From assembly GCA_000004985.1 (NCBI GenBank), contig GG738858.1: DNA of 64,000 nt. One strand, 5' to 3'. Below the pieces are notes generated by a model that was not told where the DNA came from, did not search any database, and saw only the letters and a list, made by a program, of their open reading frames with translations. Numbering within the stretch: position 1 is the first letter of the stretch; each line of letters starts with the position of its first letter. Source of the DNA: Naegleria gruberi. Taxonomy: Eukaryota. The translations under genes and the position numbers were made by a program. This document shows, piece by piece, positions 1,538-63,032 of this stretch.

Positions 1538-2848
1538 TTACAATTTGTGCATATCATGCTCAAGGATATGCATCACAGTTTCAAGTATTGTTTGATCCAA
1601 ATCTGTAAACTCCAATCCATATTTGCCTTTAACATAATTATTCGAAAAATGTAATTCCTTCCCAACCATTCCTCTCAATAAATCATATTGAGGTTTTGGT
1701 CCTGTTAAGTAAGCTCCTAACAATAGGATTTTATCTCCGATTGTATTTTCTAAAAATGGTATCTGAGTGGGAAGTTTCAGCTTCTTTTTTTCAAGAATTT
1801 GAAGAGCTTGTGGATATTTTGATATGGCCTGACAAATATCTCTTGTGCAAATTGTGTTATTGTGAACAATGACACGTTCTTGATTTGATGCCAAGTAATC
1901 ATGATCTATGTAAAATCCATTTGATTGATCATTTACGGGTTTTGATGTTTTTTCCATGACTAGACAATGAGCTAGTGCAACATCTCTCACATCGACAGAT
2001 GGACAGAATAATCTGACATGTGCTGGTATATCTACAATACTTGAAATAATTGGTTGCATTCCAATATTCTTTCTAATTCCTATTGATGGTCCAAACATGG
2101 TCGAAGGAAGAACTGCTGCAATTTCCAATTGAGTATTTGAAAATTCTCCTTTCAATAATTCAAAAGCTTCCCTTTCCGACATTGTTTTACAATAGGCATA
2201 TGTACATTGAGTGAGAGATGCCTTATCATTCCATTCTGCTTCATCAAAGTAATGCCAACTCTTTGATTTATAATCCCAAAGAGCATCTGTTGATACTGCT
2301 GTAATGGAGGATGTAAAAATCAATCTCTTCAATCTCCTTGAGTCATTTCTCTCGTTCTGCTCCTTTCTAATTTTTACACATTCTCTCACTACATTTTTCA
2401 CACCATTTACAATTGGATCAAAGAGCTCTGATTTTGGATCTGATGAATTTCTGGTGAGTGCATCATCAAGTGGACACGCAGTAGCAAACACTCCATCACA
2501 ATCCAAAAATGCATTGTAAAAACTTCCATCTTTTGCCAAATCTGCTTGAAAAAATTGCAAATTATCATCCAAACCCTCCTGACAAGCAGCCTTCTTTATA
2601 AATTCATAATTTTCCACCTTTCCCAAATTCCTCACTGTCAAATTAACTGCATGTCCACGTCGGAGAAGAGTCATTACTAGATGACTTCCTAAAAATCCCG
2701 AACCACCAATTACACAATATTTTCTTTTTGAATTTTCTTTCAATGGTAAAGAGGTTTCTTCCATGTTGTTTGTTGCCAATTCTTGTTGTTGATTAATAGT
2801 GGTGATGTGATGTTGTTGAGAATAATCTTCGGGATAGTTTGTTCCCAT
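1538..2848 (-). CDS. NAD(P)-dependent epimerase/dehydratase (extended SDR, cinnamoyl-CoA-reductase/3beta-HSD-like), single exon, 436 aa with a Q-rich N-terminus
   Basis: Rossmann motif YCVIGGSGFLGSHLV close to the N-terminus; length and motif order typical of extended SDRs; uninterrupted 1311-nt ORF. Confidence 0.65.
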   Translation of the reverse strand: MGTNYPEDYSQQHHITTINQQQELATNNMEETSLPLKENSKRKYCVIGGSGFLGSHLVMTLLRRGHAVNLTVRNLGKVENYEFIKKAACQEGLDDNLQFFQADLAKDGSFYNAFLDCDGVFATACPLDDALTRNSSDPKSELFDPIVNGVKNVVRECVKIRKEQNERNDSRRLKRLIFTSSITAVSTDALWDYKSKSWHYFDEAEWNDKASLTQCTYAYCKTMSEREAFELLKGEFSNTQLEIAAVLPSTMFGPSIGIRKNIGMQPIISSIVDIPAHVRLFCPSVDVRDVALAHCLVMEKTSKPVNDQSNGFYIDHDYLASNQERVIVHNNTICTRDICQAISKYPQALQILEKKKLKLPTQIPFLENTIGDKILLLGAYLTGPKPQYDLLRGMVGKELHFSNNYVKGKYGLEFTDLDQTILETVMHILEHDMHKL

Positions 2849-3402
2849 TTTTTTATTAAACCTTCATAATTCGGAGTGCACTTATGTTGTGTTGTAATAA
2901 AATTAATTTATTCTTCAATGTAGTGTTACAACATTTAAGGTTTTATTAAAATAATAAAAAAATATTTAAAAAATGATACAACATGATCAATACTTTCATT
3001 ATTTTGTGTTTCATTTGAATGGTTTATTTAAAGAATTTGAAATATTTTTAATATCTTTTAATTACAATAACATTAACTTATTAGAGGAAGTTGGAAATGA
3101 AAAATTTAGAGAACACAATTATGGCATTTTCAATATTGTTTTGGGGTTTCAAATAGAGCTTGGCATAGGCGAGGATCTAATTGTAGTTATTATGATTTAT
3201 TTAATGGGAATTCGAAGAAGTTATCTGCAGAAGATGAGCTAAGGTTTTGAGTTTTCTTGTTCTTTGGTGTTGGGGATATTGTGATAATTTTTGAGCATGG
3301 AAAACACCGAACCCATATTTTATTTATTATATTTAAGTTTACAATAATGTCTTAGAATTAAACACTACATTACATACGAGTGAGATGAAATACACTCGAT
3401 GA

Positions 3403-15772: not shown

Positions 15773-16189
15773 AGAGAAATTACAGTGGTTCCTATGTAAT
15801 GGTATCTATGGAAAGTTAATTTAATCAGGTCGTAGAACAGATTCTTAAATGCCTTATTTTACATCTGTTTTAAACCATCACAACCTGAAAAAAGATAATG
15901 TATTGGAGTGTATCCAACAAGTCCTAAACAGCCGTTATCGTGCTCAGTCAATTAGTCCACAACATTAGAAAGGTAATTTGTCTTGTTCTTTTTTTCTCAA
16001 GTCAATTACCATTTTCTTGGTGTTGAAAAATGATCAGTTGTGAGTCAATTTTTCCCTAATGATACCTAACCTTGTCCACATCATTCAATTTTTGCTGTGT
16101 TCCCACATAAAAGTGTGCTTAACATTTCTGTAATTTTGCCTTTTCGTTTGACAGCCACTAGAAAAAACGTAATCATAATATTAAAAAAT

Positions 16190-17698
16190 ATGTCACTTGC
16201 CAACCGAGAGAAAAGCAAAAGCTTTAATGTAGGTGACTACATGATAGTTTATGAAGAAGTGATGAAAAACAATCTCGCGAGGGAATGTTTCAGAGATTAT
16301 CTTCAAAATGTGGCATGTAGTGATGAGTCCATTCTTTTTCTAGACGAATACGAAAGATACAAACAGGAATATTCTCGTGTATTCGATATGATACTAAACC
16401 AACCTAATCTATCCGAAATTGACCATCACTGTGGAGAAATATACGATATGGCTGAAGGTTTAATGTACAAATTTATAAAACCAGAAAGTGAAAAGGAATT
16501 AAACGTAGGAAAACCCAAGATTGATTTATGGAAACGATGGAAAGATGAAATTTCATCATGTTCAATTCTAGAGTTTGAATCTTTTCACAAAGTTTTTCAT
16601 GATTTGGATCCAAATTTATTATTTCACGATATTGTAACAAGTGTCAACTTGGATTTACGAATTGATCAATTTCCAAGATTTTCACGATCTCCACAAATTT
16701 ACACTCTATTAGAAAAACAAGGAGAAACATTTACTAGAGCTATAGCTGTTGATATTTCACGAGGTTATCATGTGGATTTTAGATTTAAACCAAAAGATTT
16801 GGTAACTAATTTGATTTTTGATAGAGATTTGTATTTTGCATTTTCATTGATGGAAGATTCGCCTGATTGGCAAACTATTGAAAATAGCAAAAAGACACAA
16901 GCTCAATTTTACTATTCGAAAACACCCTATGTATTCGAAGATCAGAAACATAAGGGAATGCACATGTGTAAGGTGGTGTGTAATTTTGATTATCCCCTTG
17001 AAGATGTTTGGAAAGTTCTGAGACATGTCATTTCATTGGACGAACCTGGACGAACAGTTTCGAATATTAGACAACTAGGCTATATACCACCAAATTCTGA
17101 AAGAAAACCTCAAATGAATGTTGACGAATCAGCAGATCCATCAGAATACAATACACTAGGCCTCACCTTCTCAACATGTGAATTAGATTTCAAAGTTCCT
17201 GGCATGAAGAAGAGAGATATTCCACACACTCATACCACAATCTACGACCAAGCACTGCAGGGCTACGTGAACGTTGGACACACATCTTTCTTCAATGGAT
17301 ACGAAACACCAAAAGATTGTGTCCATGCAGATCTCTTCATTTTTTACTATGTCTGTAAGATTAGTCCATATCGTACTCGTTTCACACACATTGTATATTC
17401 TGATGGACATTTACCTGCAGCCATCAACAAGATTGTAACAATAACCATGTGGAAAAAGAGAGCTCTCTATTTTGAAAAGATATTTAACAAGATACTGAAA
17501 GATTTCACAGATAATGGATCAAGATTAATACGAGAGGGAGAATTGACTGATTGTTTTGGCCTTGATAAAAGTGCAAGAGATAATTTACAGGCATTCCCTA
17601 ATAGATCTTGGTATGAAGAGTATTTAAAGATGTTGCATACGAAAAATCCAAGTCCACGACTGAGTACCACATCCTCTTCAAAGTCATCAACTAAATAA
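16190..17698 (+). CDS. RGS-like domain protein (N-terminal RGS-like helix bundle, followed by a possible START/Bet-v1-like lipid-binding fold), single exon from ATG 16190
   Basis: VGDYMIVYEEVMKNNLARECFRDYLQNVACSDESILFLDEYERYKQEY resembles the RGS N-terminal half; ORF 16097..17698 has its first ATG at 16190 in an A-rich context. Function is tentative. Confidence 0.45.
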   Translation: MSLANREKSKSFNVGDYMIVYEEVMKNNLARECFRDYLQNVACSDESILFLDEYERYKQEYSRVFDMILNQPNLSEIDHHCGEIYDMAEGLMYKFIKPESEKELNVGKPKIDLWKRWKDEISSCSILEFESFHKVFHDLDPNLLFHDIVTSVNLDLRIDQFPRFSRSPQIYTLLEKQGETFTRAIAVDISRGYHVDFRFKPKDLVTNLIFDRDLYFAFSLMEDSPDWQTIENSKKTQAQFYYSKTPYVFEDQKHKGMHMCKVVCNFDYPLEDVWKVLRHVISLDEPGRTVSNIRQLGYIPPNSERKPQMNVDESADPSEYNTLGLTFSTCELDFKVPGMKKRDIPHTHTTIYDQALQGYVNVGHTSFFNGYETPKDCVHADLFIFYYVCKISPYRTRFTHIVYSDGHLPAAINKIVTITMWKKRALYFEKIFNKILKDFTDNGSRLIREGELTDCFGLDKSARDNLQAFPNRSWYEEYLKMLHTKNPSPRLSTTSSSKSSTK

Positions 17699-24934: not shown

Positions 24935-25173
24935 ATATGTACTTTTATATACGTCTCTTGGCGAATTGGTATTAGTAGTTACAGTCCCATTTTTTTGGCG
25001 GGTAATTTTTTGGGACAGATACTGAAAGCCCTCGCCTTAATTTTGTATTTTTCATGCTCATAATTATTTCTTTCGCGTCCAATCTGTGACATTCGTTCCA
25101 TACATGGACAAATGTATCAATATCTTGTTCCTGTTTGCATTTGAAAAACAGAGACGTATATAAAAGTACATAT
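24935..25173. mobile_element. Putative non-autonomous DNA transposon (MITE-like). 24-bp perfect terminal inverted repeats ATATGTACTTTTATATACGTCTCT (24935..24958) and AGAGACGTATATAAAAGTACATAT (25150..25173); possible TA target-site duplication if the TIR is taken as TGTAC...; 239 bp with no coding capacity
   Basis: Found directly by reverse-complementing the intergenic sequence. Each arm contains TATATAAAAG. The right arm ends 8 bp before the cyclase ATG at 25182. Confidence 0.4.
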
Positions 25174-25181
25174 CAAAAAAA

Positions 25182-27678
25182 ATGCAAGTTCAACCTGTAC
25201 CAGAAGAATCCGTTAGTTTATTAGAAAGCACACCAAAAAGAAGGAAAGGAGGTTGCATACCTCTACATGCATTTGTCATGATAACAATTTCTGTTTTGAT
25301 TTTGAGTGGTTGTCTTTTAGTTTGGCTTTCGTCTTTCATTGTTTCATCCTATTCGATTCAGAATTTGAATACGAATTTGATAGACGAATCTGCACAAAAG
25401 ATTAGTAGAACACTTGAAGGTTTTTTGAGTCCAGTTGGAAAGGTAATGTTGATGATTCGACTAGTTTATCTTAGTTTCTAACTGTTTATTCGAACAATTA
25501 GATAACGAGAATGATGGCTCGTGACTGGAATAAGGGAGTCGTCACAGTTTCGAATATGAGAGACTATTTACATCCAATCATTGTAGAGTTTGGCTTCACC
25601 TCAGCTGGTTTCTTTTTCAACGATACCTATTCGTATAGATATGCTTTTTCTGTTCAGGGAACTGTTAGTTCATTATTTTGGGGTAAGTTTAACTTTCGTA
25701 CGATTTATTAATGACCTTTCGAATAGTTTATGTAAGACAAGATTATGGTCAAGTAATTTCTTACAGAGATAAAGTCAATATCACCACAGGAGACGTAATC
25801 GTTCCAAACTTTATCAAAGTTGTTCCTCAAGTAGTTAACACTTTCGACTATTGGCTATTTATGGTAAACTATACCAGAGACACTGGAAGCGAAGGCGCAT
25901 TTGGCGATCCTTCTTTTGCAGCTGGTTCTGGATTTGCTCTGACCTACACTCAATGGGTCTATGATCAATTTCTCTGGAAAAACCAAACGAAAAAGAGATT
26001 TATTGGTCTAGCCAAAATCAACCTGTCACTTGACTATATAGTTCAGTATCTTTCGAGTAATATTGATTTGATTGGTGATGGTTATGTGGTTGTTACATTG
26101 AATAGTGGAATTGTAATTGGTGGTTCAATTAATACAACTGTGAATGATGGAACGACAGTTGCGAATATTTTTGACATTGAGACAAGAAAAGCGGGAAAAA
26201 CAATTAAGAAATTTTACGAAATGAATGGAAATACCTTTAAAAACTTTTCGTCGAAAAGTTTGACAGTAGAAAGTGAAGGAGTGAAATATATTGTTTCACC
26301 ATTCAAGTTTAGGTATGAAAATTTGGAGTGGAACATTTTCTTTGTTTTATACGAATCTGATGTCAATGCCCCAATGGTAATGAGTTCTTCCATAAGTGTT
26401 GGAATGACAGTTCTAATTATCATTGTCGGTTTAGTGGCAAGTTTATTGACTGGTTGGTTAGTGGCAAGTCCAATGAGATTCTTAGAGAAACAATTCGAAT
26501 TCATACGAGTCATGAAATTAGAAAATGTCAACATGACAAAATCATCCCCATTCAGAGAATTTCATTCCATTTACGGTAATTTAAATGATACAGTCATGTG
26601 GCTTAATGAAATTAAGGCTTTCATTCCAGAACATGTCTTTGCTCAGCTTAATCAAAGTGAGGAAATTTCACTTCCACCTCCAAAAGAAACCAAAAAGCAT
26701 GCAAAGAAAGAAACCGAATTTGAAGATATGAATGCAAGACAGTCACGTTCAAATTTGGGTTCAAGTCAAGTTTTAAGTTCAGGAAGTGCCGTTAGCCACT
26801 TAGCAAGAAATTCATCATTCAAATCTCCTTCCATTTTCAAGACTGGTTACTTAAAGAAGGGATGTGCCTTTGTACATGTCAAGTTGGAAGGTCTTTCCAA
26901 TAAGGATACTAATTTCATTTCTTCCTTTTTTGAGAAATTCATGTCCTCAGTGGGTCCAATTATTAAGGTACAGCAGGCAAATATTCAGTTTATTACATGT
27001 GATGAATTTGAATTCTCCATTACATCAAAGTATGTGGAGGGCAAACTACTGGAGAAGACAATCGAATGTTGTAATAAGATTGTAAAGACCATTGATCCAA
27101 ATGATAGAATTCAGGCAAGAATTGGAATTTGCTGTGGAATGGCTGAAGTTGGTAATATAGGGACCAAAACAGCAAGATTCTACTCTGTCCATGGTGATGT
27201 TCCAAATTGTGCCCGTTACTATTCTGATCTTGCATGTCAATACAATGTCAATATGATAACAGATGACAAGAATTTACCATTGGACAACTTTATCACAAGA
27301 CCACTTGATAGAATTCAAATTCCTTCAAATGTAGTATTAACTATTTATCAAATAATTGCTAAGAAAAATCAGGAAAATGACGAGTGGCTTTATGAATTGG
27401 AAAATAATAAGCTCAATGACAAGTACAATGAATATTCCAACATATTCAAATTATTCAGTATCAGTGATGATAATTATGATGTAGCTCCTCTCATTAATAG
27501 TGCGAAGGAAATACTGGATCAATACAAACTCAAAGGTTTGGACGAAAGTGATCTTTCCTTTTCCAATTTGAGAAACTTGTTGCATGTATTGAGCCAATCA
27601 CCAAAGCAGGAAGCTCTTTCAATACTACAATCTTATTCGAACACACTTGTGAAGGAAATGAAATCAAATAAATTATAA
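25182..27678 (+). CDS. Receptor-type class-III nucleotidyl (adenylyl/guanylyl) cyclase: TM1, a ~330-aa extracellular sensor domain (Cache-like?), TM2, a HAMP-like linker, then a cyclase homology domain. Exons 25182..25442, 25502..25682, 25727..27678
   Basis: CHD motifs GCAFVHVKLEGLS ... IQFITCDEFEF ... ARIGICCGMAEVGNIGTKTARFYSVHGDVPNCARYYS (compare ariGihtG.v..G.iG..r..y.v.GdtVN.AsR). Two TM helices (ITISVLILSGCLLVWLSSFIV, MTVLIIIVGLVASLLTGWLVA). Introns have GTAATG/GTAAGT donors with consistent phases. Confidence 0.7.
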
Positions 27679-27788: not shown

Positions 27789-29654
27789 ATGAAAAGAAAG
27801 CAATTCGATGATGAGAAACTACCCACCAGCAAGAAATTAAAAGAATGCCCACAAATAACAAGCAGTGCTGTTTCTTGTGTACTTGATGAAAGTTTCGGAT
27901 CAAATTTTCTCCACATTAAATTTACTTTAACCAGAAAATCAATAATCAAGTGGAAAACAAATATTCCCTCTGATTTTATTCCTATTGAATATTATTTTGA
28001 TAAAGAATTTGTTATGGAGGTGGTAAAGAAGGATGGATATGAACTCAGGTGTGCTTCACATGAATTGACAAATGACAGACAAGTTGTTTTGGAGGCAGTC
28101 AAGAATAATGTAAATGCTATTTGGTTTGCATCTGCAAATTTGAAAAATGACAAGGAGTTTATAAAACTTGTGCTGGAAAAAGAAATTAATCATGAGGAAT
28201 TCATATATGGATCAGTACTCGCTTGTTTGTCGAATGAATTAAGAAATGACAGAGAAATTGTTTTACAAGCAGTAAAACAACATGCGTTTGCATTGGAATT
28301 TGCCTCACGAACATTACAGAATGATTACAATCTTGTTTTGAAAGCAGTTCAACTCCATGGAAGTTCACTCACAAAAGCTTCTTTAGAGTTGAAAAACAAC
28401 AGAACAATAGTATTGGAAGCAATCAAAAGAAATGGATCAGCATTCAGATATGCCTCAAAGAAATTGAGAAATGACAGACAAGTTATTTTGGAGGCAATCA
28501 AGACCTATGATCAAACACTTTACTTTACCTCAGAAGAACTGCAGAATAATAAGGAATTTATTTTAGAAGCAGTGAAAATGAATGGCTGGATACTTAAATG
28601 TACATCAAGTGAATTGAAAAATGATGAGGAAGTTGTATTGGAAGCAGTAAGACGAAACAGACAATCACTAAAGTTTGCTTCTGGAAAATTGCAGCAAGAT
28701 ACTGATTTCGTTTTGAAAGCTATTACGCAAAATACAGAGGCACACCAACTTGACTTGGACGGTGATGCAATAATTATTGAACGACAGCATATTTTGGATG
28801 CTATTAAGAAACAAGACGGAACTGTTATTCAAACAATACCAAGTCCATTTCAAAACGACAAGGAAATTGTAATGGAAGCAGTTAAACAAAATGGGTTAGC
28901 GCTAAAATATGCCTCACATGAGCTTCAGAATGATACTGAAATAGTTTTGGAAGCTGTTAAAAGAAATAATTATGCTCTCAAATATGCCTCAATGGAATTG
29001 AGAAATAACAAACAAGTTGTCTTGGAAGCAGTTAAAAGTCACTCAAACGCGCTCAAATATGCCTCAGAAGAGCTGCAGAATGATAAGGAAATAGTTCTAG
29101 AAGCAGTTAAACAAAGTGGATATACACTCAAATATGCCTCCACCGAACTACAACACGATAAGGAATTAGTTTTAATAGCGATTCAACAGTATGGAATTAT
29201 TTGCCCAGAGGAGTTTAGTAATGATAGGGAATTTCTTTTGCAAGCTGCTAAACCAAATGGACGTTCTGTAATGGAATTTGTTTCGAATGAATTAAGAAAA
29301 GATCAACAATTTATTTTGGAGCTGGTTAAACGAAATGTATTAGAAACTCATTATCTTCCAAATGAATTTAGACATGACATGAAACTTATGTCTGAGATAG
29401 TTAGACACAATGGAGTAGCATTGAAATACAGTTCAGAAGAATTGACAATTGAAGAAAAATATATTTTGGAAGAAGAAGCAATTTTACAAAATGGATTTTG
29501 TTTGGATTTTAGTTTTGAAAAATTTTGTAAAAGGATCACACGAGAATATCCTGAATTATACTTGCCAAATTACAAGTTTAAACATTTGGGTGTTGATTTT
29601 CATGTATTGAATGCGCCATTTAGCGTTCCTAATGTAGCAAAGTTGTTCTATTAG
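27789..29654 (+). CDS. DUF4116-type tandem-repeat protein (~16 copies of a ~35-aa unit VLEAVKQNGxALKYASxELxNDKEIVLEAV), single exon
   Basis: Highly regular repeat periodicity in the 621-aa ORF; the assignment to DUF4116 is from memory. Confidence 0.55.
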   Translation: MKRKQFDDEKLPTSKKLKECPQITSSAVSCVLDESFGSNFLHIKFTLTRKSIIKWKTNIPSDFIPIEYYFDKEFVMEVVKKDGYELRCASHELTNDRQVVLEAVKNNVNAIWFASANLKNDKEFIKLVLEKEINHEEFIYGSVLACLSNELRNDREIVLQAVKQHAFALEFASRTLQNDYNLVLKAVQLHGSSLTKASLELKNNRTIVLEAIKRNGSAFRYASKKLRNDRQVILEAIKTYDQTLYFTSEELQNNKEFILEAVKMNGWILKCTSSELKNDEEVVLEAVRRNRQSLKFASGKLQQDTDFVLKAITQNTEAHQLDLDGDAIIIERQHILDAIKKQDGTVIQTIPSPFQNDKEIVMEAVKQNGLALKYASHELQNDTEIVLEAVKRNNYALKYASMELRNNKQVVLEAVKSHSNALKYASEELQNDKEIVLEAVKQSGYTLKYASTELQHDKELVLIAIQQYGIICPEEFSNDREFLLQAAKPNGRSVMEFVSNELRKDQQFILELVKRNVLETHYLPNEFRHDMKLMSEIVRHNGVALKYSSEELTIEEKYILEEEAILQNGFCLDFSFEKFCKRITREYPELYLPNYKFKHLGVDFHVLNAPFSVPNVAKLFY

Positions 29655-36015: not shown

Positions 36016-37384
36016 ATGGATACAATTGTTTCACTCATCCTTCAAAGCAAGAAGAAGGATCAATTAGATGATCTCCAAAAGAAGCTTGAAGCTAACATTG
36101 ATAAGTTGAGACAAATGACTGGTCATGTTTCTACAGCCTTGAAAGCTTTGAGACCTGATGAACACGCTATGGGTATTACATATTTACTTTTCGCCAAGGC
36201 TACTCTTCCAAAGCTTGATGAAAGCTTTTTGGTTGAAGTTGAAGGTTTTGTTTCAGCTATGGATGGTGAACAAACTAGAAGAGCCGCTAACAGATTTGTT
36301 TATGTTACTAATAGATATATGGAATTGTGTAGAGATAATAACTTGTCAAGCAGAGGTATTAGAACCCTCCAAGTTGCTGTTCAACGTTTCCGAAAGTCAT
36401 CAGAATTTTTGACTCCTGTCCACAGTCAATTACTCTGTTTGTGTTTGAAGAGTAAGAACTACAAGATCGGATACAATTTAATTGAAAATAAGATCTTTGA
36501 TATTGACACTGATATCACTGGACTTACACCAAGAGATATGTTGTTGTATTATTACTATGGTGGTTTGATCTATATTGGCATGAAGGAATACTCAAAGGCA
36601 TACAATTTTTATGATCTTGTAAGTAGTTGTTTTATTGATCAACAATAGTTTCTAATTTCTTCATACTAAAAAGGCTATGCAAATTCCAGCTCTTGCTTTG
36701 AATGCTATCATGGTTGAAAGTGCCAAGAAACTTGTTTTGGTTTCACTTTTAGTACACGGTAAATATTTGGGTATTTCAAAGAATGCTTCAAACTTGGTTC
36801 ATAGACACATGAAGACATTCTGTTCTCTCTATTTAGATTTTGCTTCTGCTTTTGAACGTAATGATGTCGAAAAGGCTCTCAAGATCATGACTGAAAATGC
36901 TCAAGTTTTCAAGGAAGAAAAGAATTTGGGTTTGATGAAGCAATGTATTTCTGCTCTCAATAGAAGAAATATTCAAAAGCTTACTTCAACATATGTTACT
37001 CTCTCTTTGGTTGATATTGCCAAGGCTGCTCGTTTGAAGGATGCTAAGGAAGCCGAATCTCTCTTGTTCAAGATGATTGATAATGGTCAAATTAATGCTA
37101 GAATTAACCAAGTTGACGGAATGGTTACCTTTGAAGAAGACAGTCAATCATCTAACTTTGTTTCTCCTTTCACAAATCAAACTCTTGATAGAAGTATTCA
37201 AAAGACAGTTGACTTTACCAAACGTCTCAAGAGGATGGATGAAGAAATTTCAACATCATCTGCTTATATTATTCGTTCATTTGGTTTGAGAGAAGAAATG
37301 TTCACAATGGATGCTATGTCTAACAAGAGAGGTGGTGCTGCATCAATTGGTCGTTTGCTTGGATCTTTCGACATGTGGAGATAA
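36016..37384 (+). CDS. CSN3: COP9 signalosome subunit 3 (PCI domain); exons 36016..36618 and 36674..37384
   Basis: MLLYYYYGGLIYIGMKEYSKAYNFYDL|AMQIPALALNAIMVESAKKLVLVSLL... matches human CSN3 ([48 protein letters not shown]); GTAAGT donor, phase 0; TACTAA-like branch site. Confidence 0.85.
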
Positions 37385-44144: not shown

Positions 44145-46137
44145 ATGTCTAATAATCAACACGATCCTTCCACAAGCAACATTGAAAATCAAACCAAAGA
44201 CCCACTCCAACATGAAGTTGCATCAACACAACAACCCAGTGTGAGCACGAGTTTAAACTCTCAAAGAAGAGAAACAGAACAGTTGGAAGTCATGCAATTC
44301 TTAGAGATGGAAGATGTCCTCTCAAAGATGGATAAACAAATAGAATTCAACCACTCAACTCTACCTCAGCAGCAACAGCAAACATTTAACAACACTTCAT
44401 CGCAAAATAATTCACACAGACATAGTAAAACAGTTCAACAACAAGAAAACCAAACAACAATACCCATTCAGAAAGGTAGAAAAAAGGAATTTGTAATATC
44501 AACCAGGTGTGGACAGATTCAATTGACTTTCGAGAGGGTACTTTCGTTTTTAATAATGATTCTCACCATATCCATACTATTAGTAATGAGCATTCTTTCC
44601 ACTGGTATTGTAAGTTTCCAGAAAGCGTTTACGCCAAAAGTTAACTTCAAGTCAAGTCGTCTAAAGTCATTTTAAGTCGAAAAAAAAAGTCAATTTACTG
44701 GCAACAAAATCGATTCAAAGTCGATTCACAGACAACTGGCAATCAACTACAATCGATTCAAAGTCGATCCAATTCTTGTTTTAATTGCTTGCACTGCAGT
44801 GGAACTATTATCAAATAGACTTCTAAAGAACTTGGAGAGAAATAAAGGCTAAAGTAAGAAGAATTGACACCAAATTATGCAAATATATCAAAAGAAAATA
44901 AATTGAGTTAATTCTTCTTTCAACTGCAGGTTGGTGTTAGTTGATTTGGGGATCAATCAAAAGTCGTCTGTTTTTAACGTCATCCAAAATCAAGTCAGGT
45001 CGCACCAAGTCGATCAAAAAAGTTAATTTTTTGCGTAAACGCTTTCTGGAAACTTACAATACTATAGTAATCCAATCCAAGACAGAGGATACTTGCTATC
45101 AACATGTTGCTTCATTACTGGTCAACTTGAACGATATCAAAGTTAGTTTTGATATCATGCTAGGCAGTTCACTTTCAAAACAACGATTACTTTCTGAGGT
45201 TAACAGTACAATGAAAGTGGTGAGCAAAGAATTGGATGCTCTGATATTGGACATTCCATCGTACAATAAGGTCAATAACTTATCTAGAGAATCAATCATA
45301 CCAATGCTGAGGAAGAATTTCAATGATTTTCAAACTGTTCAAACCATAATGTTCAATAATGTTGTGAATAATGTTAAAGATTTCAACTTTTACAAGTTCA
45401 ATTACCTTACTCAACTGCAAATACTTGTTAATAGCTTGGGAGATCCATTAATTATTGCTGATAGAGCTGCGTATAATGAAGATGTGTACATGAATTATAG
45501 TGCCGGTGTTAATTTAATTCTAGTTTCGATTACATTACTAATCATTGTTCCAGTAATGGTAATTGTTTTAATTATTACTATTGGAAGAGATAATTTATTT
45601 ATGGATAAGTTGAAAAAAGCAGATGCACATGTTATTATAGAGGTAATGGAAGATGATCGCTTACATATTTTATTTAAGGAATTCTGCAAACTAAATAATC
45701 AATATTCTAAAGTTCTATTTTTGGAGAAGGTAATGTTGTACAAGGAACAATGTGAGAAAGTTTATGATTTGCATGATCAAATCGAATCTCTATCAGATGT
45801 TTCAGGAGGTGAAGCTAGTAAAAGTCTCAGCCATGAGGTTGACATTTTGGAAGCAAAGAAATTCGAATTGGCATTCGAAATCATAACTGAATTCCTTGAT
45901 AATGACAGTGAATCATTCTTGGGAGTGAAATTACTAGGTGGTAAAAGAGATATTGAAAAAGTTAAAAAGACTTTTGATGAAAAATCAATGAATTTACCAG
46001 ACAAACTTTTCAAATCACTCCAAACTAATGTCGCAGTTTACTTGTTACAAACCCACAAACTATTCCAAGCTCAACAACGGAGAAATAGAGAAGAACGTAA
46101 AAAGAATCGTCTGCTAAAACTTCAAAAACACAAATAA
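44145..46137 (+). CDS. Two-TM RGS-domain protein whose coding sequence is interrupted by a 452-bp TIR element. 5' part 44145..44607, 3' part 45061..46137 (RGS domain near the C-terminus). Could be spliced (donor 44610, acceptor 45081) or be a disrupted allele
   Basis: RGS motifs ILFKEFCKLNNQYSKVLFLEKVMLYKEQ ... ELAFEIITEFL...VAVYLLQTHKLF; TM helices FLIMILTISILLVMSILSTG and GVNLILVSITLLIIVPVMVIVLIITIG. Removing 44608..45061 (element plus one TA) fuses ORF 44145..44675 and ORF 44941..46137 in frame (..LSTG-T-IVIQSKTEDTCYQHV..). Confidence 0.6.
44608..45059. mobile_element. Tc1/mariner-Stowaway-like MITE. 27-bp perfect TIRs TTGTAAGTTTCCAGAAAGCGTTTACGC (44608..44634) and GCGTAAACGCTTTCTGGAAACTTACAA (45033..45059), extendable to ~40 bp with 2 mismatches; TA target-site duplications at 44606..44607 and 45060..45061; internal AAGTCG sub-repeats; no ORF
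   Basis: Reverse-complement comparison of 44601..44650 with 45010..45065. The TIR terminus contains the consensus 5' splice site GTAAGT. Confidence 0.6.
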
Positions 46138-62338: not shown

Positions 62339-63032
62339 ATGCAAGCAAACAATCAAGTACCAACATTCAAGCTTCTCCTCGTTGGAGATGGTGGAACCGG
62401 AAAGACAACATTTGTTAAGAGACATTTGACTGGTGAATTTGAAAAACGTTACATTGCAACTGTTGGAGTTGAAGTTCGTCCATTAAGATTCAACACAACA
62501 AGAGGACCAATTTGTTTTGAGGTTTGGGATACTGCTGGTCAAGAAAAATTTGGTGTAAGTAATATTTAATACTTTACAAAATAGTTTACAAAAATATAAG
62601 GGATTGAGAGATGGTTATTATATTGGAGGAAAGTGTGCAATCATCATGTTTGATGTAACCTCAGTAGCCACCTATAAAAATGTTCCAACATGGCATCGTG
62701 ACATTGTCAGAGTGTGTGAAAACATTCCAATTGTCTTGTGTGGAAATAAGGTTGATGTTCAAGATAGAAAGGTTAAACCAAAATCAATCAAATATCACAG
62801 AACTAAACAATTGCAATATTATGATATCTCAGCAAAGAGCAATTACAATTATGAGAAACCATTCTTGTGGTTGGCAAGACAAATTGTTGGTGATCCAAAG
62901 TTGAGTTTAGTTGAAGAAATTCCAATTTGTCCAGTTGATATTGTAATTGATTTGGAAATGATTAAGAAATATGAAGAAGAATTGGCAAAATATAGTGCAA
63001 TTGCACTTCCAGATGATGATGAAGATTTGTAA
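62339..63032 (+). CDS. RAN: Ran GTPase; exons 62339..62554 and 62601..63032
   Basis: [36 protein letters not shown]...[10 protein letters not shown]|[21 protein letters not shown]...NKVD...C-terminal ALPDDDEDL acidic tail; GTAAGT donor, 46-nt intron, phase 0. Confidence 0.9.

What the first reader, a model, noticed from the sequence alone, without database searches (positions are those of the whole stretch)
44606..45061. TA-flanked 452-bp TIR element (MITE) inside the coding sequence of an RGS gene: frame-neutral on excision, and carrying a GTAAGT donor in its terminus (introner-like)
The sequence shows 27-bp perfect terminal inverted repeats (about 40 bp allowing 2 mismatches) flanked by a TA..TA duplication. 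That is the Tc1/mariner-Stowaway signature. The element has no ORF and contains AAGTCG sub-repeats.

The element splits a two-TM RGS-domain gene. Deleting the element plus one TA joins ORF 44145..44675 and ORF 44941..46137 exactly in frame (..LSTG|T|IVIQSK..). The insertion is therefore recent, with intact TIRs and TSDs.

The TIR terminus reads TT-GTAAGT. Either end of the element thus places a consensus 5' splice site at the host junction. An in-frame AG (tccaag|ACA, 45081) lies 20 nt downstream. The element could therefore be spliced out as an intron.

This is the arrangement proposed for 'introner' transposons that generate new spliceosomal introns. Alternatively the window captures a freshly disrupted allele.
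Basis: partly seen in the sequence, partly recalled or inferred. Interest (0 to 1): 0.85.

Follow-up and report, generated by a model that had tools for sequence, protein, structure and literature searches.

The report
Small transposon inside a Naegleria gene
A 452-base non-coding "cut-and-paste" transposon has recently landed in the protein-coding part of a Naegleria gruberi signalling gene and breaks its reading frame; that it acts as a newly made intron remains unsupported speculation.

Summary
Window 44608-45059 is a 452-bp element with no ORF. Its terminal inverted repeats are perfect for 27 nt and match at 38 of 40 positions. It is flanked by TA/TA and holds six AAGTCG motifs that occur nowhere else in the 64 kb.

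The window is Naegleria gruberi. Removing the element plus one TA gives a 512-aa two-TM, RGS-family protein. That protein aligns without a gap across the junction with its paralogs. The element is therefore a genuine, probably recent, transposon insertion into an exon.

The reference gene model hides the insertion inside a 592-nt "intron" (44476-45067). That model deletes 46 residues, including the conserved motif and the first TM helix, and is most likely an annotation workaround.

The introner reading is only weakly supported. GTAAGT in the repeat is the host's consensus donor. However:
- The element supplies no 3' splice site.
- An exact 454-nt removal is impossible.
- The consensus donor joined to the nearest AG gives a frameshift and an immediate TAA.
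- The donor would sit inside a 43-bp RNA stem.
- No second copy was found in any data I could reach.
- A published genome-wide screen lists N. gruberi NEG-M as having no introners.

Verdict: an ordinary MITE-like, TA-duplicating insertion. It is a new member of a known kind and of modest interest.

The parts
44608..45059 (.). The inserted element: 452 bp, non-coding, 33.6% GC, CpG-rich relative to the window (14 CpG against 5.2 expected)
   Evidence: Stops in all six frames. No protein match to any translated frame. No Rfam match.
44606..44607 (.). Left copy of the TA target-site duplication
   Evidence: Removing the element plus one TA restores the ORF and colinearity with paralogs.
45060..45061 (.). 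Right copy of the TA target-site duplication
   Evidence: same reasoning as for the left copy.
44608..44647 (+). Left terminal inverted repeat: 27 nt perfect, 38/40 overall
45020..45059 (-). Right terminal inverted repeat
44610..44615 (+). GTAAGT inside the left TIR, identical to the host's consensus 5' splice site. Its complement ACTTAC lies at 45052-45057.
   Evidence: In the predicted RNA it pairs with 45052-57 inside the TIR stem.
44649..44766 (+). Left subterminal cluster of seven AAGTC(G) motifs, including two copies of AATCGATTCAAAGTCGAT
   Evidence: All motifs are on the + strand.
44961..45012 (+). Right subterminal cluster of three AAGTC(G) motifs. They have the same orientation as the left cluster, so they are direct rather than inverted.
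44145..44607 (+). Host gene, part upstream of the insertion: N-terminal region, conserved T.CG..(E/Q)L motif and TM helix 1
45062..46137 (+). Host gene, part downstream of the insertion: luminal/extracellular region, TM helix 2 and the RGS-like domain, through the stop codon
44476..45067 (+). The 592-nt 'intron' of the public gene model (P0001). Its donor is GTAGAA and its acceptor is ctatAG. It swallows the element plus 132 nt of conserved coding sequence upstream of the TSD and 6 nt downstream.
   Evidence: exons 44145-44475 plus 45068-46137 translate exactly to P0001. P0001 lacks the segment conserved in all homologs.
45066..45067 (+). First AG downstream of the element. It is out of frame with the GTAAGT donor: a 458-nt interval, and the next codon is TAA.
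45080..45081 (+). Second AG downstream of the element. It is in frame with the GTAAGT donor: a 472-nt interval that would replace TIVIQSK with I.

Best explanation
A non-autonomous cut-and-paste DNA transposon, MITE-like, integrated at a TA dinucleotide in the coding exon of a Naegleria gruberi gene. It has 40-nt terminal inverted repeats and a 2-bp TA target-site duplication, the hallmark of Tc1/mariner/pogo-type integration.

The host gene belongs to a heterolobosean family of two-TM, RGS-domain proteins. The insertion lies just after the first transmembrane helix, at codons 155/156.

Shown:
- the element's anatomy;
- the exact restoration of the reading frame when the element and one TA are removed;
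- the gap-free match of the restored protein to its paralogs.

Inferred:
- The insertion is recent, because the TIRs and TSD are intact and both halves of the host ORF are undamaged.
- On this haplotype the gene is interrupted. ORF1 runs into the element and stops at 44673-75.
- The 592-nt intron in the public model is a gene-prediction workaround, not a real intron.
- The GTAAGT in the TIR is most likely coincidental, or at best a latent cryptic donor, rather than an adaptation for splicing.

A null or heterozygous allele would be tolerable, because the gene has many paralogs.
For: - **TIRs and TA flanks.**: a 30-nt exact arm against at most 18 nt in random windows.
- **No coding capacity.**
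- **Frame restoration.** One search yields a 512-aa product.
- **Colinearity with homologs.** Multiple alignment A1. BLASTP against paralog P0002 gives E 3e-95 and is gap-free from residue 117 to 232, spanning the junction. Homolog P0003 is one uninterrupted ORF on metagenome contigs.
- **Public model.** P0001 equals exons 44145-44475 plus 45068-46137 and lacks the conserved 46 residues.
- **Large paralog family.** 62 cluster representatives, with N. gruberi paralogs on another scaffold.
- **Splicing arithmetic.** GTAAGT plus the nearest AG gives 458 nt, a frameshift and a TAA. There is no AG at the position needed for length-neutral removal.
- **RNA structure.** The TIR stem would enclose the donor (-140.6 kcal/mol, z -8.8).
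- **Literature.** NEG-M is listed without introners in the supplementary table of PMC9860276.
Against: - Only one copy has been seen, so membership of a multi-copy family and the identity of the mobilising transposase are unverified.
- An exact host-consensus donor hexamer 2 nt inside the terminus is unlikely by chance. The chance is about 1e-3 for that hexamer within the first five positions, and about 1-2% if any donor-like hexamer in the first ten positions is allowed.
- Both host ORF halves are intact. This also fits a spliced, still-selected gene.
- At least two GT/AG pairs would remove the element in frame: 44610/45081 and 44605/45067.
- No transcript data could be consulted.
Confidence: 0.7

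Rival explanations
1. Introner-like element. The family's TIR carries the host consensus 5' splice site, so either orientation places TA-TT-GTAAGT at the upstream junction. The insertion is removed from the pre-mRNA as a new spliceosomal intron using a downstream AG (45081) or an internal acceptor (44940, 44994 or 45009). The gene stays functional with a small indel.
For: - GTAAGT at 44610 equals the donor of the validated short introns in this window and is rare by chance.
- In-frame acceptors exist.
- Both ORF halves are intact.
- Some published introner families carry only the 5' site and recruit the 3' site from the TSD or neighbouring exon, sometimes adding or deleting codons (PMC9860276).
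- TIR pairing can bring intron ends together (PMC11282704).
Against: - There is no AG at the element's 3' boundary, and the TA duplication cannot supply one.
- A length-neutral intron from the GTAAGT donor would need AG at 45062-63, which reads CT.
- The first AG after the element gives a frameshift and TAA.
- The validated introns here are 43-55 nt, against 472 nt for this one.
- The donor is buried in a 43-bp stem.
- No second copy was found in the window, the protein database, metagenomes, GTDB or viral contigs.
- NEG-M is scored introner-negative in a systematic screen.
- Classified TE content of N. gruberi is reported as 0.28%.
Confidence: 0.13
2. The public gene model is right. The cell really splices 44476-45067, discarding the element together with 132 nt of upstream exon and 6 nt of downstream exon, and makes a 466-aa protein without the first TM helix.
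For: - The model is in frame and reproduces P0001 exactly.
- The acceptor ctatAG lies directly after the TIR terminus ACTTACAA, which resembles a branch-site-like YTNAY motif. This last point is an inference.
Against: - The model deletes the T.CG..(E/Q)L motif and TM1, which are conserved in the other seven homologs aligned.
- The donor GTAGAA is not the host consensus GTAAGT.
- Gene predictors routinely bridge frame-breaking insertions with such introns (general knowledge).
Confidence: 0.07
3. Non-spliceosomal, euglenid-type 'nonconventional intron'. The element plus one TSD copy is excised precisely from the RNA, guided by pairing of its inverted-repeat ends, as in the related Discoba lineage Euglenida.
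For: - Such introns have TIR-based end pairing and TSD-like repeats at their junctions, and are thought to derive from MITEs (PMC11282704).
- Here a strong terminal stem is predicted, and exact removal of the element plus one TA restores the ORF.
Against: - Exact ORF restoration is expected for any fresh insertion.
- I found no report of nonconventional introns in Heterolobosea.
- The typical euglenid CAG/CTG pairing at +4..+6 and -8..-6 is absent. Positions +4 to +6 of the element read TAA.
- Only a single copy is known.
Confidence: 0.02
4. Assembly artefact or chimera, or an old hairpin-containing intron rather than a transposon.
For: Only one assembly was available. The window reproduces the reference model exactly, so it is not independent evidence.
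Against: - A perfect TIR, a 2-bp duplication and codon-exact restoration of a conserved protein are the signature of transposase-mediated integration, not of misassembly.
- An old intron would not leave a gap-free, colinear protein only when one TA is also removed.
- Homolog P0003 has no intron there.
Confidence: 0.03

Closest known systems
Stowaway-like / Tc1-mariner-pogo-derived MITEs (non-autonomous TIR elements with a TA target-site duplication)
   Same: - Small size (452 bp) and no ORF.
- Long TIRs (27 nt perfect, 38/40 overall).
- A strict 2-bp TA duplication.
- A strongly hairpin-forming sequence.
- A palindromic target context (G-TA-C).
   Different: - The terminal sequence TTGTAAGT... 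does not resemble the canonical Tc1 (CAGT...), mariner or plant Stowaway (CTCCCTCC...) termini; this comparison is from memory.
- The subterminal AAGTC(G) motifs have the same orientation at both ends instead of being inverted.
- Copy number and the autonomous partner are unknown.
- The host, Naegleria, is TE-poor (0.28% classified TEs). I found no published MITE description for it.
Introners / introner elements (Micromonas, Aureococcus, dinoflagellates and others; Huff et al. 2016, cited from memory; Gozashti et al. 2022, PMC9860276)
   Same: - A TIR- and TSD-bearing non-autonomous DNA transposon sitting in a coding exon.
- One splice-site-like signal, the consensus 5' site, carried in the element's terminus.
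   Different: - Introners are defined by many near-identical copies that are annotated, spliced introns. Their second splice site is carried or created by the TSD, so that splicing is usually length-neutral.
- Here one copy is known, the TA duplication cannot make an AG, and length-neutral splicing is impossible at this site.
- The consensus donor plus the nearest AG is out of frame.
- N. gruberi NEG-M was negative in the published screen.
Euglenid nonconventional introns (Discoba)
   Same: The host belongs to the same supergroup. The ends pair through inverted repeats, a short direct repeat sits at both junctions, and a MITE origin has been proposed.
   Different: There is no evidence of RNA-level removal. 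The characteristic +4..+6 / -8..-6 CAG/CTG pairing is absent. Such introns are not known in Heterolobosea.

Membership tests
TA-duplicating TIR DNA transposon, non-autonomous (Tc1/mariner/pogo-type MITE) | Terminal inverted repeats at both ends | tested here: met
   27 nt perfect and 38/40 overall (43 nt at 95% when G-TA is counted). Zero expected by chance.
TA-duplicating TIR DNA transposon, non-autonomous (Tc1/mariner/pogo-type MITE) | A 2-bp TA target-site duplication, so that removing the element plus one TA recreates the empty site | tested here: met
   TA at 44606-07 and 45060-61. Removal restores the ORF and gap-free colinearity with paralogs. Longer duplications are excluded by direct reading of the flanks.
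TA-duplicating TIR DNA transposon, non-autonomous (Tc1/mariner/pogo-type MITE) | Small size and no transposase ORF | tested here: met
   452 bp with stops in all six frames. No protein hit for any frame.
TA-duplicating TIR DNA transposon, non-autonomous (Tc1/mariner/pogo-type MITE) | Multiple dispersed copies in the genome, each with its own TA duplication | not testable with these tools
   No second copy in the 64-kb window. Scans of metagenome, GTDB and viral collections were negative or spurious.
TA-duplicating TIR DNA transposon, non-autonomous (Tc1/mariner/pogo-type MITE) | TIRs shared with an autonomous element that encodes a DD(E/D) transposase of that superfamily | not testable with these tools
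   No transposase domain in any ORF of at least 220 aa in the window. No access to Repbase, Dfam or the whole genome.
Introner (intron-generating transposon) | Many similar copies that coincide with spliced introns of unrelated genes | tested here: inconclusive
   Only one copy was seen. The supplementary table of PMC9860276 lists Naegleria_gruberi_strain_NEG-M as '1 0 0 0', against '1 1 1 0' for Aureococcus. That reading means no introner family was detected. A very low-copy family would escape that screen.
Introner (intron-generating transposon) | Both splice sites carried by the element or created by its TSD, so that intron boundaries coincide with the element and its TSD | tested here: not met
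   The 5' site is present (GTAAGT, 44610). No AG lies at or next to the 3' boundary, which reads ...ACTTACAA-TA-CT. The TSD is TA. A 454-nt removal would need AG at 45062-63, which reads CT.
Introner (intron-generating transposon) | Splicing preserves the reading frame | tested here: inconclusive
   GTAAGT plus the first AG (45067) is out of frame and is followed by TAA. GTAAGT plus the second AG (45081) is in frame with a net loss of 6 aa. In-frame internal acceptors lie at 44940, 44994 and 45009.
Introner (intron-generating transposon) | Actual removal from transcripts | not testable with these tools
   No RNA-seq or EST data are accessible. A suitable data set exists (PRJEB23822, named in PMC6142364).
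RGS-domain protein (the host gene) | Match to Pfam RGS (PF00615) above the gathering threshold | tested here: inconclusive
   This protein scores 17.6 bits against a cut-off of 23.9, E 0.005. Six of nine aligned family members match, best E 3.8e-9. Family-level assignment is therefore sound, but this member is divergent.

The most novel reading that the evidence does not exclude
The element belongs to a low-copy family of TA-targeting MITEs in Heterolobosea whose symmetric TIR has come to carry the host's consensus 5' splice site in either orientation. This would make it a 'proto-introner'.

Inserted at TA|AG sites, such an element would make a length-neutral intron: GTAAGT...TA-AG, 454 nt, changing only two exonic bases. 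At other sites, like this one, it would rely on a nearby AG (45081) and cost a few codons.

This would be the first intron-generating transposon in Discoba outside the euglenid nonconventional introns, caught one insertion after the event.
Probability: 0.1. Interest if true: 0.75.

Novelty: new member of a known kind. Interest (0 to 1): 0.35.

Why it matters
As it stands, the finding does three things.
- It documents an intact, apparently young DNA-transposon insertion in a genome reported to be very poor in transposons.
- It corrects a public gene model (XP/EFC 'predicted protein', 466 aa), which should be a 512-aa two-TM RGS-family protein interrupted by an insertion.
- It gives a concrete marker, the 27-nt TIR, for finding the family and its transposase in Naegleria.

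If the splice-competent reading were true, it would extend transposon-driven intron gain to Heterolobosea. It would also offer a case in which the insertion, the empty-site sequence and the splice outcome can all be read at a single locus. That claim needs transcript data and genome-wide copy data, and neither was available here.

Tried and rejected
1. **Second copies in the window.** BLASTN with word size 7 found only self-hits and the TIR.
2. **Six-frame translated element against 5.8 billion proteins, to catch gene models that read through other copies.** Nothing at E <= 10.
3. **TIR 22-mer in JGI metagenomes.** None.
4. **Gapped two-TIR pattern in metagenomes.** One hit, L001. Alignment shows an unrelated GC-rich fold-back contig that shares only the 12-mer, so I rejected it as a chance match.
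5. **Scans of GTDB genomes (two) and viral contigs (three) with TIR or internal-repeat patterns.** None.
6. **Exact-protein look-ups of P0001, P0002 and the truncated ORF1 product, to get independent contigs of this locus.** Not on record.
7. **Submitting the reconstructed protein to the representative search.** I used the downstream part instead.
8. **Rfam on 44400-45300.** No match.
9. **Literature on Naegleria MITEs, introners and mariner.** Nothing specific. The 2010 genome paper is not held.
10. **Other TSD lengths (3, 4 and 8 bp) and a TSD-less reading (458-bp IR unit).** Rejected. The flanks do not repeat beyond TA, and removing 458 nt does not restore the frame.
Full report
**Identity of the window.** The 64-kb window has about 33% GC throughout and is densely packed with eukaryotic genes. 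These include a COP9 subunit, a Ras-family GTPase, a DEAH helicase, an XRCC1-like protein and Alg9. The protein reconstructed across the finding matches 'predicted protein [Naegleria gruberi]' (P0001, 466 aa, on a 782-kb contig). The window reproduces that model exactly. It is therefore the N. gruberi reference sequence or something identical to it at this locus.

**The observation.**
- The inverted repeat is real. Its arms are 44605-44647 and 45020-45062, 43 nt and 95% complementary.
- The 27-mer TTGTAAGTTTCCAGAAAGCGTTTACGC occurs once on each strand, at 44608 and 45059, against none expected in shuffles.
- An exact-arm scan of the whole window finds only two non-random inverted pairs. This one is 30 nt when G-TA is counted. 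Markov-random windows reach at most 16-18 nt.
- TA flanks both ends, and nothing longer is duplicated.
- The 452-bp interior has stops in every frame, no Rfam match, and no protein match for any translated frame.
- All six AAGTCG motifs of the entire window lie inside the element. The ten AAGTC cores are all on the + strand in both subterminal regions, so they are direct repeats rather than inverted ones. The element also holds 14 CpG against 5.2 expected.

**Is it an insertion into coding sequence?** Yes.
- ORF 44145-44675 and ORF 44941-46137 are in different frames.
- Deleting 44608-45061, which is the element plus one TA, gives a 512-aa product reading ...SILSTG-T-IVIQSKTED....
- A full HMMER search with the downstream part found 62 cluster representatives. 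The closest are N. gruberi paralogs on another scaffold (P0002, P0004, P0005). The set also includes a Willaertia magna protein and proteins from metagenomes.
- In the multiple alignment the reconstruction is colinear with all of them across the insertion point. This covers a conserved T.CG..(E/Q)L motif and the first hydrophobic helix.
- BLASTP against P0002 gives 39% identity and E 3e-95, and is gap-free from residue 117 to 232. The junction is at residues 155/156.
- Homolog P0003 is a single uninterrupted ORF on two metagenome contigs.
- Six of nine aligned members hit Pfam RGS, with a best E of 3.8e-9. The interrupted member itself scores below threshold. 'Two-TM RGS-family gene' is therefore correct.

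**The public gene model.** P0001 equals exons 44145-44475 plus 45068-46137. The annotators' intron is thus 44476-45067: 592 nt, donor GTAGAA, acceptor ctatAG. It removes the element together with 138 nt of coding sequence, which is 46 residues including the conserved motif and TM1. I read this as a predictor bridging a frame-breaking insertion, not as evidence of splicing. That is an inference, because I could not see ESTs.

**What kind of element is it?** TIRs, a 2-bp TA duplication, small size and no ORF define a non-autonomous TA-duplicating DNA transposon, of the Tc1/mariner/pogo type and 'Stowaway-like'.
- Three defining features were tested and met.
- Two could not be tested: multi-copy status and a matching autonomous element. 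Only this window of the genome is accessible. No transposase domain occurs in any ORF of at least 220 aa here.
- Searches for further copies were all negative. I searched the window, translated frames against 5.8 billion proteins, JGI metagenomes, GTDB genomes and viral contigs.
- The single metagenome hit, L001, is an unrelated fold-back contig that shares only a 12-mer.
- Published work reports very low classified TE content in N. gruberi (0.28%, bioRxiv 10.64898/2026.06.24.734286). It mentions Kolobok elements, which make TTAA duplications, in Naegleria.
- I found no description of Naegleria MITEs.

**The introner idea: points in favour.**
- GTAAGT is the host's donor. It is the commonest hexamer at candidate ORF-joining introns in this window.
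- Three short introns with GTAAGT donors are validated, because Pfam domains run straight through the joins: COP9_hel_rpt 2-232, Ras 1-160 and Pkinase 39-263. They are 36619-36673, 62555-62600 and 39002-38960 on the minus strand, with lengths of 55, 46 and 43 nt.
- GTAAGT occurs at 2.7e-4 per position, so finding it 2 nt inside the terminus is unlikely by chance.
- Because the TIR is symmetric, either orientation would present it.
- In-frame acceptors exist at 45081 (TIVIQSK becomes I) and at 44940, 44994 and 45009 inside the element.

**The introner idea: points against.**
- The 3' end of the element reads ...ACTTACAA-TA-CT. It has no AG, and the TA duplication cannot supply one.
- A length-neutral intron from the GTAAGT donor would be 454 nt and need AG at 45062-63, which reads CT.
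- The first AG after the element (45066-67) gives a 458-nt interval, a frameshift and an immediate TAA.
- The predicted RNA closes the whole element with the TIR stem (-140.6 kcal/mol, z -8.8). This places GUAAGU in a 43-bp duplex.
- The validated introns nearby are about ten times shorter.
- The systematic survey of Gozashti et al. 2022 included Naegleria_gruberi_strain_NEG-M and scored it '1 0 0 0'. Introner-bearing Aureococcus scores '1 1 1 0'. I infer from these entries, not from a header line, that the first column means aquatic and the later ones introner presence.

One defining introner feature was therefore tested and not met: boundaries coinciding with the element and its TSD. The others are untestable or inconclusive.

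**Most likely mechanism.** A transposase acting in trans, from a partner not yet identified, cut the element at its TIRs and integrated it at the TA of ...CACTGG-TA-CTATAG..., duplicating the TA.
- This haplotype now encodes a 176-aa product that ends inside the element. Any spliced product would depend on cryptic sites.
- The perfect termini, the intact TSD and the undamaged host ORF halves suggest a recent event, possibly heterozygous or strain-specific.
- A large paralog family makes loss of one member tolerable.
- I put about 0.93 on 'transposon insertion into an exon'. I put about 0.7 on the full statement, which adds that the allele is interrupted rather than productively spliced.

**Rivals.**
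- Splice-competent proto-introner: about 0.13.
- The annotated 592-nt intron is real: about 0.07.
- Euglenid-type nonconventional removal: about 0.02. The review PMC11282704 describes TIR- and TSD-bearing, probably MITE-derived introns in the related Euglenida. Their characteristic end pairing is absent here, and none are known in Heterolobosea.
- Artefact or old intron: about 0.03.

**Novelty and score.** This is a new member of a known kind: a MITE-like TA-duplicating element, in an organism where such elements are scarcely documented. It comes with a useful correction to a public gene model. Interest: 0.35.

Noticed in passing
window 24935-25173: This is the second non-random inverted repeat in the window. 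It has 24 nt exact arms (24935-58 and 25150-73) that read A-TA-[TGTACTTTTATATACGTCTCT...AGAGACGTATATAAAAGTACA]-TA-T. That is compatible with another TA-flanked TIR element of about 233 bp. It lies in an intergenic stretch and ends 9 nt upstream of an ATG at 25182. Apart from a short TGTA near the terminus, its TIR does not resemble that of the 44608 element.
   Followed up: partly
window 44476-45067 (public protein P0001): The reference N. gruberi gene model places an intron around the transposon and so loses 46 conserved residues, including TM helix 1. The model should be a 512-aa protein interrupted by an insertion.
   Followed up: yes
window 44649-44766 and 44961-45012: All ten AAGTC(G) motifs of the element point the same way at both ends. 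Subterminal transposase-binding repeats would normally be inverted. AAGTCG occurs nowhere else in the 64 kb. I have no explanation for this.
   Followed up: partly
window 44771-44799 and 44910-44930: The element holds two internal copies of a pyrimidine-rich stretch ending in CTGCAG: AATTCTTGTTTTAATTGCTTGCACTGCAG and AATTCTTCTTTCAACTGCAG. On the + strand they look like good 3' splice sites. Used with the GTAAGT donor, both would lead quickly to stops: 44799 is in frame but followed by stops, and 44930 is out of frame.
   Followed up: partly
window 16097-17695: A separate ORF carries a clear Pfam RGS domain (E 1.7e-9). It is a second RGS-family gene 27 kb upstream of the interrupted one.
   Followed up: no
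window 27789-29651: An ORF holds 13 tandem DUF4116 repeats (E 2e-153). It is unrelated to the finding.
   Followed up: no
L001 (Ga0137420_1368932) 2700-3400: This metagenome contig is a near-perfect large palindrome, probably a fold-back assembly artefact. It matched the gapped TIR pattern by chance through a 12-mer and is not related to the element.
   Followed up: yes
L002 2211-3707; L003 1291-2787: Environmental contigs (JGI 3300002220 and ENA ERZ27315067) encode an intronless 498-aa member of the same two-TM RGS family. An uncultured heterolobosean-like organism therefore appears to be present in those samples.
   Followed up: no
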